From NCBI RefSeq assembly GCF_013167455.1, contig NZ_CP038328.1: a stretch of DNA of 64,000 nt, one strand, 5' to 3'. Positions 158 to 39,110 of this stretch are shown here, piece by piece. The notes under the pieces were generated by a model. It made no database searches and was not told the DNA's origin. It saw only the letters and a program-made list of their open reading frames with translations. The stretch is from Escherichia coli O157:H7. Its GTDB lineage: Bacteria; Pseudomonadota; Gammaproteobacteria; Enterobacterales; Enterobacteriaceae. Each line of letters begins with the position of its first letter. Positions within the stretch are counted from its first letter, which is position 1. A program made the translations under genes and the position numbers.

Positions 158-1447
158 ATGAAAGTATTAGTGATTGGTAACGGCGGGCGCGAGCACGCGC
201 TGGCCTGGAAAGCGGCCCAGTCGCCGCTGGTTGAGACTGTTTTTGTTGCTCCGGGTAACGCAGGCACAGCGCTGGAACCCACGCTGCAAAACGTCGCTAT
301 CGGCGTGACCGATATCCCGGCGCTGCTGGATTTCGCGCAAAACGAAAAGGTAGATCTAACCATCGTCGGCCCGGAAGCGCCGCTGGTGAAAGGCGTGGTC
401 GATACCTTCCGCGCCGCCGGGATGAAAATCTTCGGCCCAACCGCAGGCGCCGCACAGCTGGAAGGCTCGAAAGCGTTTACTAAAGATTTCCTGGCCCGCC
501 ATAACATTCCTACGGCGGAATATCAGAACTTCACCGAGGTAGAACCTGCGCTGGCGTATCTGCGTGAGAAAGGCGCGCCAATCGTCATTAAAGCGGACGG
601 TCTGGCTGCCGGGAAAGGCGTTATCGTGGCGATGACGCTGGAAGAAGCGGAAGCGGCTGTTCACGATATGCTGGCGGGCAACGCGTTTGGCGACGCGGGT
701 CATCGCATCGTTATCGAAGAGTTCCTCGACGGCGAAGAAGCGAGCTTTATCGTGATGGTGGACGGCGAGCATGTGCTGCCGATGGCCACCAGCCAGGATC
801 ACAAACGCGTAGGCGATAAAGATACCGGGCCGAACACGGGCGGAATGGGCGCTTACTCTCCTGCGCCGGTAGTGACAGATGACGTTCATCAGCGCACGAT
901 GGAACGTATCATCTGGCCAACCGTGAAAGGCATGGCGTCGGAAGGCAACACCTACACCGGTTTTCTCTACGCGGGCCTGATGATCGACAAACAGGGCAAT
1001 CCGAAGGTTATCGAATTTAACTGCCGCTTTGGCGATCCAGAAACCCAGCCGATTATGCTGCGCATGAAGTCCGATCTTGTTGAACTCTGCCTGGCGGCCT
1101 GTGAAGGCAAACTAGACGAGAAAACGTCAGAGTGGGATGAACGTGCTTCTCTCGGCGTGGTGATGGCTGCGGGTGGATATCCGGGCGATTACCGCACCGG
1201 TGACGTGATCCACGGCCTGCCGCTGGAAGAAGTGGAAGACGGCAAAGTGTTCCACGCGGGCACAAAACTGGCGGATGACGAGCAGGTGGTAACCAGCTGC
1301 GGGCGCGTACTGTGCGTCACCGCGCTGGGTCATACCGTAGCAGAAGCACAGAAACGCGCCTATGCCTTAATGACCGATATCCACTGGGACGACTGCTTCT
1401 GCCGGAAAGATATCGGCTGGCGCGCTATCGAACGCGAGCAGAACTAA
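158..1447 (+). CDS. purD: phosphoribosylamine-glycine ligase (GAR synthetase), 429 aa
   Basis: ORF 146..1447; conserved N-terminus MKVLVIGNGGREHALAWK begins at 158; ATP-grasp fold sequence. Confidence 0.95.
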   Translation: MKVLVIGNGGREHALAWKAAQSPLVETVFVAPGNAGTALEPTLQNVAIGVTDIPALLDFAQNEKVDLTIVGPEAPLVKGVVDTFRAAGMKIFGPTAGAAQLEGSKAFTKDFLARHNIPTAEYQNFTEVEPALAYLREKGAPIVIKADGLAAGKGVIVAMTLEEAEAAVHDMLAGNAFGDAGHRIVIEEFLDGEEASFIVMVDGEHVLPMATSQDHKRVGDKDTGPNTGGMGAYSPAPVVTDDVHQRTMERIIWPTVKGMASEGNTYTGFLYAGLMIDKQGNPKVIEFNCRFGDPETQPIMLRMKSDLVELCLAACEGKLDEKTSEWDERASLGVVMAAGGYPGDYRTGDVIHGLPLEEVEDGKVFHAGTKLADDEQVVTSCGRVLCVTALGHTVAEAQKRAYALMTDIHWDDCFCRKDIGWRAIEREQN

Positions 1448-15333: not shown

Positions 15334-15715
15334 GACGGAATGTAAGAACGAAAATTTATTCCGAGCCGCTACGGAAGATGAAAAACGCAAGGTTGTTGAA
15401 AGCGTTGTGTTTTTTTATGGTAGTGCCGTCAGCAGGAATGTTGTCCAGGGCGAAAAGCTTCTTCCTCGTTTCGCCCTGCCTTTCTTAAAAATTCCGTAAT
15501 GCAAAGTCTGAAGCCATCGCCTGTTGAGCAATGAAAGAGATCTGATTGTAAGAGAGTAAATACTCAACTATGATAGAGACGAAAATAAGAACACATGTTC
15601 TCATCTTCCAGGATGCAGCAGACTGAAGAAATTCAGACATCCCGCAACCTGCGATTATCGCAAGGTCAAGGCAAAGTCCGGTAATGGCGTTCTGAATACC
15701 AGAGATAATTCTCTG

Positions 15716-15750
15716 GCGAAACCCACCTTAAGGTGGGTTTTGTTATTTTG
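15716..15750 (+). terminator. hairpin plus T-run between convergent thiH and htrC, possibly bidirectional
   Basis: AAACCCACC-ttaa-GGTGGGTTT followed by TGTTATTTT, read from sequence. Confidence 0.55.
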
Positions 15751-15767
15751 AGGGCTGAGGAAGCTGC

Positions 15768-16211
15768 TTATTTCTCAATAAGTTTTAGGCAATGGTGAAA
15801 AATTTCACTGAAAGCCCTGAACACAACAAAGTAAAATGCCTTATCTCCTCCGTCTAAGTCCACCTCAATCACGGCATAGCTACCATACCCGGCATGAATA
15901 ACGTTGCTTTCTGGCAGCGCCAAAATAGTTCTTTTTAAGTGTGTGCGCGCTAAGTTATAACGGTGCTGGCAGAAGGGACGAGATTCTTTAGGCGCGTGGT
16001 ACATTAACGATAGTTTTTCTTCGTTCGTCTGATGTTCATAATCTTTTGTGAAGCAGTGAAGAGAGTAGGTAACCCAAAAGCGATACTCTAAAGGCTCCTT
16101 GTCCTCATGATGCTGAACGTAGATAACCTGATGAGCATCAAGAAACGATAAATCACGAACGTCGCCATCCGGATGTTTAAAAGGTCGCCACTTCTCCACT
16201 TCCTGTTTCAT
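15768..16211 (-). CDS. htrC: HtrC/YjaZ-like protein, 147 aa as read here (see finding on frame structure)
   Basis: ORF track; AAGGA Shine-Dalgarno 6 nt upstream of the ATG; K-12 position between thiH and rpoC; protein identity from synteny, not from remembered sequence. Confidence 0.6.
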   Translation of the reverse strand: MKQEVEKWRPFKHPDGDVRDLSFLDAHQVIYVQHHEDKEPLEYRFWVTYSLHCFTKDYEHQTNEEKLSLMYHAPKESRPFCQHRYNLARTHLKRTILALPESNVIHAGYGSYAVIEVDLDGGDKAFYFVVFRAFSEIFHHCLKLIEK

Positions 16212-16373
16212 TCTCGTTCCTTAAGAAAGCTACACAGGAATAGTATCGAATCCTTGCCGAGTTTGACTCAATTAGTTCAGTCAGTTTCAGGATATTAGTC
16301 ATCTCTACATTGATTATGAGTATTCAGAAATTCCTTAAATATTCTGACAAATGCTCTTTCCCTAAACTCCCCC

Positions 16374-26001: not shown

Positions 26002-26253
26002 TAGCTTTGCTCCTGGATGTTTGCCAGAGAAAATCTCTGGAACTCACTTCACTCCTCCAAACGGAGAGAGCGTCTTAATTACGGTGAGCAGAAACAAGCC
26101 AGAATATAAAAGAATAATCTTAGCGTTCTGTCACCGTCTACGCAGGGGATTAAGTTTCTTGCGAAACTCCTGCGGTCTTCGACGGAGGCCTGGATAGGCC
26201 AGGCTCCAACGAACAAATCTTTTTAGCTGCTAACTTTCGTTAGCATACGTGGG
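26002..26253 (-). promoter_or_regulatory. rplJ (L10) mRNA leader, the autoregulatory target of the L10-(L7/L12)4 complex
   Basis: Position between the predicted PL10 promoter and the rplJ start; function from established rplJL autoregulation, not verified by folding. Confidence 0.6.
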
Positions 26254-26259
26254 GGTAAG

Positions 26260-26288
26260 ATTGTAGACAAAATCACCGCCCACGTAAA
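26260..26288 (-). promoter_or_regulatory. candidate PL10 promoter (-35 TTTACG, 17-bp spacer, -10 TACAAT)
   Basis: Hexamers read on the minus strand about 30 bp downstream of the rplA stop. Confidence 0.5.
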
Positions 26289-26292
26289 GGCA

Positions 26293-27492
<1,200 letters not shown>

Positions 27493-33819: not shown

Positions 33820-33910
33820 AGCTGCTTTCCTGATGCAAAAACGAGGCTAGTTTACCGTATCTGTGGGGGGATGGCTTGTAGTTATGACGACAGGGAGAGT
33901 TTGTAGAAAC

Positions 33911-33942
33911 GCAAAAAGGCCCAGTCTTCCGACCGGGCCTTC
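33911..33942 (-). terminator. rrn operon terminator (single hairpin) downstream of the 5S rRNA
   Basis: Minus-strand AGGCCCGGTCGGAAGACTGGGCCT hairpin followed by TTTTTGCGTTTC. Confidence 0.6.
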
Positions 33943-33953
33943 TGCTTAATTTG

Positions 33954-34073
33954 ATGCCTGGCAGTTCCCTACTCTCGCATGGGGAGACCCCACACTACCA
34001 TCGGCGCTACGGCGTTTCACTTCTGAGTTCGGCATGGGGTCAGGTGGGACCACCGCGCTAAGGCCGCCAGGCA
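33954..34073 (-). rRNA. rrfB: 5S ribosomal RNA, 120 nt
   Basis: Reverse complement matches E. coli 5S (TGCCTGGCGGCC...GGGAACTGCCAGGCAT) with one variant base near the 5' end. Confidence 0.95.
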
Positions 34074-34166
34074 AATTCTGTTTTATCAGACCGCTTCTGC
34101 GTTCTGATTTAATCTGTATCAGGCCGAAAATCTTCTCTCATCCGCCAAAACACCTTCGGCGTTGTA

Positions 34167-37070
<2,904 letters not shown>

Positions 37071-37263
37071 TCACAACCCGAAGATGTTTCTTTCGATTCA
37101 TCATCGTGTTGCGAAAATTTGAGAGACTCACGAACAACTCTCGTTGTTCAGTGTTTCAATTTTCAGCTTGATCCAGATTTTTAAAGAGCAAATATCTCAA
37201 ACATCACCCGAAGATGAGTTTTGAGATATTAAGGTCGGCGACTTTCACTCACAAACCAGCAAG

Positions 37264-37339
37264 TGGCGTCCCCTAGGGGATTCGAACCCCTGTTACCGCC
37301 GTGAAAGGGCGGTGTCCTGGGCCTCTAGACGAAGGGGAC
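37264..37339 (-). tRNA. gltT: spacer tRNA-Glu (anticodon UUC)
   Basis: Reverse complement reads GTCCCCTTCGTCTAGAGGCCCAGGACACCGCCCTTTCACGGCGGTAACAGGGGTTCGAATCCCCTAGGGGACGCCA. Confidence 0.95.
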
Positions 37340-37424
37340 GTATCAGTCTGCTTCGCAAGACGCCTTGCTTTTCACTTTCTATCAGACAATCTGTGTGAGC
37401 ACTGCAAAGTACGCTTCTTTAAGG

Positions 37425-38966
<1,542 letters not shown>

Positions 38967-39097: not shown

Positions 39098-39110
39098 TTG
39101 TTAAAGAGCA
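39098..39110 (-). promoter_or_regulatory. rrn leader boxA antitermination element (TGCTCTTTAACAA)
   Basis: Exact boxA consensus on the minus strand in the 16S leader. Confidence 0.7.

What the first reader, a model, noticed from the sequence alone, without database searches (positions are those of the whole stretch)
37071..37424. Short (354 bp) 16S-23S spacer with tRNA-Glu; 16S to tRNA-Glu segment only 85 bp
The 16S to tRNA-Glu segment is 85 bp and the tRNA-Glu to 23S segment is 193 bp. I recall the K-12 rrnB spacer as about 440 bp with a longer 16S-proximal segment, while several other tRNA-Glu rrn operons carry the short form. This locus therefore appears to carry a short-type spacer, probably through gene conversion between rrn operons.
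Basis: partly seen in the sequence, partly recalled or inferred. Interest (0 to 1): 0.15.

Follow-up and report, generated by a model that had tools for sequence, protein, structure and literature searches.

The report
Ordinary short rrnB 16S-23S spacer
This is the normal short tRNA-Glu spacer between the 16S and 23S rRNA genes of E. coli O157:H7 operon rrnB; it is the commonest form in the species, and K-12 rrnB is the exception because it carries an extra 106-base block.

Summary
The rrn operon lies on the minus strand, and its 16S-23S spacer (37071-37424) is 354 bp: 85 bp, tRNA-Glu(UUC) of 76 bp, then 193 bp. The locus is rrnB (murI upstream, murB downstream) of E. coli O157:H7, 100% identical to Sakai and EDL933. 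K-12 rrnB is 440 bp (171+76+193). Outside one block the two spacers differ by a single SNP. The block, directly upstream of the tRNA, is 20 nt here and 106 nt in K-12; I take the 106-nt block to be the 'spacer loop' of Harvey et al. 1988. All four Glu operons of O157:H7 are 354 bp. Species-wide, about 81% of Glu spacers are short, 49% of complete genomes lack the 106-nt block, and about 68% of sampled rrnB loci are short. Single-copy genomes carry the block at rrnG, and a long rrnB appears only in genomes with two copies. So K-12-type strains probably copied the block from rrnG into rrnB, and O157:H7 probably did not lose it. Gene conversion among rrn operons is real: window 16S+spacer equals O157 rrnE with 0 differences in 1,896 nt. 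It need not explain shortness here. Known polymorphism, low interest.

The parts
37425..38966 (-). 16S rRNA gene (rrsB)
   Evidence: Rfam SSU_rRNA_bacteria, 1576.5 bits, full length. Annotated rrsB in Sakai, which is 100% identical here.
37071..37424 (-). 16S-23S transcribed spacer of rrnB, short tRNA-Glu type, 354 bp
   Evidence: Bounded by the Rfam rRNA hits. Identical to the rrnB and rrnE spacers of O157:H7 PV15-279.
37360..37424 (-). Constant 16S-proximal 65 nt. Spacer positions ~5-46 form the 3' half of the 16S RNase III processing stem, pairing with the leader upstream of the 16S.
   Evidence: Duplex with the leader is -78.3 kcal/mol against -34.8 +/- 4.3 for shuffles; the core pairs AGTGCTCACACAGATTGTCTGAT with ATCAGACAATCTGTGTGGGCACT. 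The assignment as an RNase III stem rests on established E. coli rRNA-processing knowledge.
37340..37359 (-). 20-nt variable block CTTGCGAAGCAGACTGATAC. This is the short allele; K-12 rrnB and rrnG have a 106-nt block at this position.
   Evidence: Alignment A1 and block extraction. The short-junction 68-mer occurs 17,603 times in 5,368 genomes.
37264..37339 (-). tRNA-Glu(UUC), gltT
   Evidence: ARAGORN and Rfam tRNA at 60.1 bits. Invariant across all eight Glu spacers compared.
37191..37230 (-). boxB-like hairpin immediately upstream of the spacer boxA
   Evidence: RNAfold of spacer 186-250 gives an 11+5 bp hairpin at -16.7 kcal/mol. The boxB role is inferred from established knowledge of rrn antitermination.
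37178..37190 (-). Spacer boxA (TGCTCTTTAAAAA), the antitermination signal ahead of the 23S
   Evidence: TGCTCTTTAA occurs exactly twice in the 64 kb window, here and in the rrn leader at 39110..39101; 0.05 matches expected by chance.
37078..37186 (-). 23S 5' leader segment, matching Rfam StyR-44; its 3' end pairs with the sequence after the 23S
   Evidence: Rfam RF01830, 122.9 bits against a gathering score of 54. Duplex with the 23S-5S spacer is -63.9 kcal/mol against -40.0 +/- 4.4 for shuffles.
34166..37070 (-). 23S rRNA gene (rrlB)
   Evidence: Rfam LSU_rRNA_bacteria, 2871.5 bits.
33956..34071 (-). 5S rRNA gene (rrfB)
   Evidence: Rfam 5S_rRNA, 93.2 bits.
39098..39110 (-). Leader boxA of rrnB
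   Evidence: Pattern search and the leader sequence printed.

Best explanation
The region is the standard short tRNA-Glu spacer of rrnB in E. coli O157:H7. It is transcribed as part of the rrn precursor. In 5'-3' order on the operon strand it supplies: the 3' half of the 16S RNase III stem, a 20-nt linker, tRNA-Glu(UUC), a boxB-like hairpin plus boxA that renew antitermination before the 23S, and the 5' half of the 23S processing stem. It differs from K-12 rrnB by one SNP and by having the 20-nt linker where K-12 has a structured 106-nt block. That block is a presence/absence polymorphism within E. coli whose usual home is rrnG. K-12-like strains carry a second copy at rrnB, most simply explained by a short gene-conversion patch from rrnG. 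O157:H7 has no copy in any operon, so its short rrnB spacer is most likely the unconverted, common state. Shown here: the coordinates, the block structure, the frequencies, the nesting and the within-genome homogeneity. Inferred: the direction of the event and the processing and antitermination roles.
For: Anatomy. Locus and organism: murI upstream, murB and thrU-tufB downstream, 100% identity to Sakai, EDL933 and EC4115. Block swap: 20 nt against 106 nt after the shared ...AAGCAAGGCGT; only 1 SNP elsewhere, and the tRNA-to-23S part is 193/193 identical to K-12 rrnB. Operon tables: O157:H7 is 354 bp x4 (rrnB, C, E, G) and 446 bp x3 (rrnA, D, H); K-12 is 440, 354, 354, 431, 446, 437, 446. Species-wide: the 106-nt block is in 2,791 of 5,426 genomes with 4,008 copies; the short junction has 17,603 copies, median 3 per genome. 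The rrnB sample is 40 short / 12 long / 7 Ile-Ala, and the rrnG sample is 29 long / 29 short / 1 Ile-Ala. Nesting: six of six single-copy genomes checked carry the block at clpB-linked rrnG, as does NCTC9699. In the sample 15 of 40 block-positive genomes have two copies, about 19% of all genomes, which matches the 20% that are long at rrnB. The K-12 rrnB and rrnG blocks are identical while their flanks differ. Concerted evolution: window 16S+spacer against O157 rrnE shows 0 differences; the O157 Glu spacers differ by <=2 substitutions from each other but by 6 from K-12 rrnC and rrnE. Measured conversion rates between E. coli rrn operons, and an earlier experimental demonstration of 16S-23S spacer exchange by Harvey & Hill 1990, are given in PMC8022953.
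Against: The direction is inferred from frequencies and nesting in samples of 40-60 genomes, not from a phylogeny with ancestral-state reconstruction. I could not examine the rrnB or rrnG spacers of outgroup species. The one genome-contig scan used an exact 20-mer and draws on many draft assemblies in which rrn spacers are often missing. The title of Harvey et al. 1988 (cited in PMC4696680) shows that loss of the block from rrnB also happens, so the opposite direction is mechanistically possible. The exact identity of O157 rrnB and rrnE shows recent conversion did touch this operon.
Confidence: 0.85

Rival explanations
1. One reading: the ancestor of O157:H7 had the long (106-nt block) spacer at rrnB, and it was overwritten by a short spacer from rrnC or rrnE through gene conversion.
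For: The window's 16S and spacer are identical to O157 rrnE over 1,896 nt, which shows recent homogenisation involving this operon. O157:H7 has only two spacer lengths genome-wide, against five in K-12. Loss of the block from rrnB is documented for a K-12 subline by the title of Harvey et al. 1988. [quoted passage not shown]
Against: Short is the majority state at rrnB (40 of 59). 49% of genomes have no block at all. Single-copy genomes have it at rrnG, never at rrnB, in the seven checked. Long rrnB tracks two-copy genomes. The block's 20-mer was found in no other species' representative genome (weak evidence).
Confidence: 0.13
2. Assembly artefact: the spacer was assigned to the wrong rrn operon when near-identical repeats were collapsed.
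For: rrn operons are classic misassembly sites. No result here supports this reading.
Against: The 5.8 kb from murB to murI is 100% identical in at least 25 independently assembled complete O157:H7 genomes, including Sakai, EDL933, EC4115 and Xuzhou21. All four Glu operons of this lineage have the same spacer length, so mis-assignment could not change the result.
Confidence: 0.01
3. A simple 86-bp deletion in the O157 lineage rather than any exchange between operons.
For: The net length difference is exactly 86 bp. 11 of 16 aligned bases (TTGCGAAGCAGACTGA against TTGGGAGTGAGGCTGA) hint at remote common ancestry of the two blocks.
Against: The 20-nt block is not a subsequence of the 106-nt block, so this is a replacement. 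The same 20-nt block is shared exactly with K-12 rrnC and rrnE and occurs 17,603 times across the species, so it was not created de novo here.
Confidence: 0.01

Closest known systems
E. coli K-12 rrnC and rrnE 16S-23S spacers (short tRNA-Glu type, 354 bp)
   Same: Same architecture and lengths (85/76/193), an identical 20-nt block, an identical tRNA-Glu and the same boxA.
   Different: 6 substitutions (column 15, the GTCGCCGACC / GTCACCTGCC motif, GAGAG / GAAAG and others). They sit at different chromosomal loci.
E. coli K-12 rrnB spacer (long tRNA-Glu type, 440 bp, with the 106-nt block; Harvey et al. 1988, J Bacteriol 170:1235)
   Same: It is the orthologous locus (murI-rrnB-murB). Outside the block the sequences differ by 1 SNP, and the 193-nt tRNA-to-23S part is identical.
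   Different: K-12 has 106 nt where the window has 20 nt. The 106-nt block folds stably (-31 kcal/mol, z = -2.8). That this block is the 'rsl' of Harvey et al. is my recollection plus the paper's title; the paper itself was not readable here.
ECOR-collection spacer variants (Garcia-Martinez et al. 1996, J Bacteriol 178:6374; Anton et al. 1998, J Mol Evol 47:62)
   Same: The titles describe sequence diversity of the small (tRNA-Glu) 16S-23S spacer among natural E. coli and K-12, which is the same kind of polymorphism (citations confirmed).
   Different: I could not read these papers, so I cannot say which of their named variants the O157:H7 spacer corresponds to.
Experimental spacer exchange between rrn operons (Harvey & Hill 1990, Genetics 125:683; Espejo-type rate measurements in PMC8022953)
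   Same: This is the same mechanism invoked here: RecA-dependent gene conversion between rrn operons, including whole-spacer swaps. The 7 of 59 rrnB loci carrying an Ile/Ala spacer are natural examples.
   Different: Those are laboratory events with a known direction. Here the direction is inferred.

Membership tests
E. coli short tRNA-Glu 16S-23S spacer | Lies between the 16S and 23S genes of one rrn operon | tested here: met
   Rfam boundaries and RefSeq annotation of the identical sequence.
E. coli short tRNA-Glu 16S-23S spacer | Contains a single tRNA-Glu(UUC) and no tRNA-Ile or tRNA-Ala | tested here: met
   ARAGORN finds only tRNA-Glu at 37264-37339 between the rRNA genes.
E. coli short tRNA-Glu 16S-23S spacer | 85-nt 16S-to-tRNA segment ending in the 20-nt block CTTGCGAAGCAGACTGATAC | tested here: met
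   Block extraction and alignment; identical to K-12 rrnC and rrnE.
E. coli short tRNA-Glu 16S-23S spacer | boxB-like hairpin plus boxA between the tRNA and the 23S | tested here: met
   boxA at 37178-37190 and the hairpin at 37191-37230. Function was not tested.
E. coli short tRNA-Glu 16S-23S spacer | Flanks complementary to the leader and the trailer, forming the RNase III processing stems | tested here: met
   Duplex energies far below shuffles. Cleavage itself is not testable here.
Long (106-nt block) tRNA-Glu spacer as in K-12 rrnB and rrnG | Presence of the 106-nt block upstream of tRNA-Glu | tested here: not met
   Absent from the window and from all four Glu operons of O157:H7 PV15-279.
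Rfam RF01830 StyR-44 | Covariance-model score above the gathering threshold | tested here: met
   122.9 bits against 54, full model length. The same hit occurs in K-12 rrnB, so it is a generic part of the spacer.
Product of rrn-rrn gene conversion at this locus in this lineage | A derived state at rrnB relative to its ancestor, with a donor operon in the same genome | tested here: inconclusive
   Potential donors exist (rrnC, E and G are all short, and rrnE is identical). However, the frequency and nesting data point to short as the older state at rrnB.

The most novel reading that the evidence does not exclude
The 106-nt block missing here is a young, lineage-restricted structured RNA insertion. 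It was found in only 51% of E. coli genomes, normally at rrnG, and its 20-mer was in no other species' representative genome. It has no Rfam family. If it has a function in precursor processing, or as a released small RNA, then O157:H7 and half the species would be natural nulls.
Probability: 0.1. Interest if true: 0.3.

Novelty: already known. Interest (0 to 1): 0.05.

Why it matters
It matters little. The result confirms that K-12 is not a good reference for the normal rrnB spacer: the short form is the species norm, and the K-12 long form is a minority allele. Spacer type per rrn locus (short Glu, long Glu, Ile/Ala) is a fast-evolving marker driven by gene conversion. That is relevant to spacer-based typing and to checking assemblies, but none of it is new in kind.

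Tried and rejected
1. I tried to read the primary papers: Harvey et al. 1988 (PMC210897), Harvey & Hill 1990 (PMC1204094) and Garcia-Martinez et al. 1996 (PMC178516). None is held, so only titles and citations could be confirmed. The phrase 'ribosomal spacer loop' occurs in none of the listed papers.
2. I scanned the species-representative genomes for a 20-mer of the 106-nt block. The only result was a chance hit in Pontibacter. This gives no outgroup information on locus state and is only weak evidence of absence, because the match must be exact and many assemblies are drafts.
3. An Rfam search of the K-12 long spacer at E<=1 found no family covering the 106-nt block.
4. The assembly-artefact and simple-deletion explanations were considered and rejected (see rival explanations).
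5. An ungapped comparison of the window with PV15-279 failed after 23S position ~540 because of a 4-nt length difference. The window is therefore not that exact strain, but it matches Sakai, EDL933 and others over the whole operon.

Full report
OBSERVATION. The rrn operon in this part of the window is on the minus strand. Rfam places the 16S at 38966..37425, the 23S at 37070..34166 and the 5S at 34071..33956. ARAGORN finds a single tRNA-Glu(UUC) at 37339..37264. The spacer is therefore 37071-37424 = 354 bp: 85 bp from 16S to tRNA, the 76-bp tRNA, and 193 bp from tRNA to 23S. RefSeq annotation of the identical sequence in an O157:H7 genome gives the same boundaries.

LOCUS AND SOURCE. murI and btuB (with its cobalamin riboswitch) lie upstream. 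murB, birA, coaA, thrU-tyrU-glyT-thrT and tufB lie downstream. The operon is therefore rrnB. The 5.8 kb from murB to murI is 100% identical to E. coli O157:H7 Sakai (where it is annotated rrsB/rrlB/rrfB), EDL933, EC4115, Xuzhou21 and many others. This excludes an assembly artefact.

COMPARISON WITH ALL rrn SPACERS OF K-12 AND OF AN O157:H7 GENOME. In K-12 MG1655 the spacers are: rrnA 446 bp (Ile+Ala), rrnB 440 (Glu, 171/76/193), rrnC 354 (Glu, 85/76/193), rrnD 437 (Ile+Ala), rrnE 354 (Glu), rrnG 431 (Glu, 171/76/184) and rrnH 446 (Ile+Ala). In O157:H7 PV15-279, rrnB, rrnC, rrnE and rrnG are all 354 bp (85/76/193), and rrnA, rrnD and rrnH are all 446 bp.

WHAT THE DIFFERENCE IS. All eight Glu spacers share the first 65 nt, ending ...AAGCAAGGCGT. 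The short forms then have 20 nt (CTTGCGAAGCAGACTGATAC) and the long forms have 106 nt (TTACGCG...AATTTTCGT), followed immediately by the tRNA. Outside this block the window differs from K-12 rrnB by one SNP. The 193-nt tRNA-to-23S segment is identical. The 20-nt block is not a subsequence of the 106-nt block, so this is a replacement and not a plain deletion. The 106-nt block folds stably (-31 kcal/mol, z = -2.8), while the short 16S-to-tRNA segment is not unusually structured. The block matches no Rfam family even at E<=1. The sizes 106 and 20 fit my recollection of the 'ribosomal spacer loop' of Harvey, Hill, Squires & Squires 1988. [quoted passage not shown]

HOW THE SPACER WORKS. The anatomy is shown here; the functions rest on established rrn biology.
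- Spacer positions ~5-46 are almost perfectly complementary to the leader upstream of the 16S (-78 kcal/mol against -35 +/- 4 for shuffles). This is the 16S RNase III stem.
- The variable block (window 37340-37359) lies between that stem and the RNase P site of tRNA-Glu, outside the stem's near-perfect core pairing.
- Downstream of the tRNA come a boxB-like hairpin (37191-37230) and boxA (37178-37190). The boxA decamer occurs only here and in the leader, at 39110..39101.
- The last ~110 nt match Rfam StyR-44 and pair with the 23S trailer.
- K-12 rrnB has the same elements. The short/long difference therefore does not remove any recognised signal.

HOW COMMON EACH STATE IS. The 106-nt block is present in 2,791 of 5,426 complete E. 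coli genomes, with 4,008 copies and a median of one per genome; 49% of genomes have none. The short junction occurs 17,603 times in 5,368 genomes, median 3. About 81% of Glu spacers in the species are therefore short. At the murI-linked rrnB locus, a systematic sample of 59 genomes gave 40 short, 12 long (including K-12) and 7 with an Ile/Ala spacer. At the clpB-linked rrnG locus the sample gave 29 long, 29 short and 1 Ile/Ala (one short example was verified).

DIRECTION OF CHANGE.
- In the sample, 25 of 40 block-positive genomes have one copy and 15 have two.
- Six single-copy genomes whose coordinates did not already indicate the locus all carry the block at rrnG, as does NCTC9699.
- Two-copy genomes make up about 19% of all genomes, matching the 20% that are long at rrnB.
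- Long rrnB is therefore nested within long rrnG.
- In K-12 the two blocks are identical while their flanks differ (23 substitutions and a 9-nt indel in the spacers overall).
- The simplest history is that the block was copied from rrnG into rrnB in K-12-like strains by a short conversion patch.
- O157:H7, which has no copy anywhere, simply retains the common rrnB state.
- A 20-mer of the block was found in no other species' representative genome. This is weak evidence, because the match must be exact and many assemblies are drafts.

GENE CONVERSION IS STILL EVIDENT. The window's 16S plus spacer is identical to O157 rrnE over 1,896 nt. The four O157 Glu spacers differ from each other by at most 2 substitutions but by 6 from K-12 rrnC and rrnE. 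Paralogues within a genome are thus closer than orthologues between genomes, and O157:H7 has two spacer length classes against K-12's five. Rates of rrn conversion, and the earlier demonstration of spacer exchange, are summarised in PMC8022953. The type call and the mechanism class are right. The implied direction (this locus was converted to short) is probably wrong, at about 0.13 probability.

COMPARISON WITH WHAT IS KNOWN, AND VERDICT. The spacer is a member of the well-known short tRNA-Glu class. All defining features tested were met, and it fails the defining feature of the long class. Spacer polymorphism among E. coli strains and its exchange by gene conversion have been described since 1988-1998: Harvey 1988, Harvey & Hill 1990, Garcia-Martinez 1996 and Anton 1998 (citations confirmed). 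Novelty: already known. Interest: about 0.05. The only mildly open point is the origin and function of the 106-nt block itself, which is not in this window.

Noticed in passing
window 33820-33955 (minus strand; between rrfB and murB): O157:H7 rrnB ends in a single terminator. About 169 bp present in K-12 are missing: terminator T1 and the inter-terminator segment reported to encode the sRNA RrB (PMC8144298). The remaining hairpin has a T1-like stem and T2-like flanks. O157 rrnA is similarly short (5S to mobB is 101 bp against 269 bp in K-12), while rrnD keeps the segment. Species-wide the segment is in 3,977 of 5,426 genomes, median 2 copies.
   Followed up: partly
window 26005-26297 (rplA-rplJ intergenic region, minus strand): This intergenic region is 121 bp shorter than in K-12. 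K-12 carries an extra block that resembles an ERIC/IRU repeat (from memory, not tested), replaced here by about 21 nt (GCTAACGAAAGTTAGCAGCTA).
   Followed up: partly
window ~36517-36530 (23S positions ~541-554, minus strand): This is a short hypervariable patch of the 23S gene. The window's rrlB differs here from O157 rrnE and rrnG and from all K-12 Glu operons. It also differs by 4 nt in length from rrlB of O157:H7 PV15-279 (2905 against 2901 nt), so this site varies even between O157:H7 strains.
   Followed up: partly
window ~37929-37965 and 37545 (16S positions 1002-1038 and 1422, minus strand): A cluster of 10 differences separates the window's rrsB (identical at these sites in O157 rrnE and rrnG) from O157 rrnC and from all four K-12 Glu-operon 16S genes. 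This is intragenomic 16S heterogeneity confined to one helix region.
   Followed up: no
murI-linked rrnB locus in other E. coli genomes (H53-H59): About 12% of sampled genomes (7 of 59) carry a tRNA-Ile + tRNA-Ala spacer at rrnB instead of tRNA-Glu. These are natural whole-spacer exchanges between operon types.
   Followed up: no
window ~15700-16250 (yjaZ region, next to sroH at 15581-15741): The ORF corresponding to K-12 yjaZ (540 nt) is annotated as a 444-nt hypothetical gene in O157:H7. sroH itself is intact.
   Followed up: no
L001 47497-47612 (outside the window, downstream of rrnE in O157:H7 PV15-279): yjaA, present between rrfE and yjaB in K-12, is absent in O157:H7. From memory, this fits its use as a phylogroup marker.
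   Followed up: no
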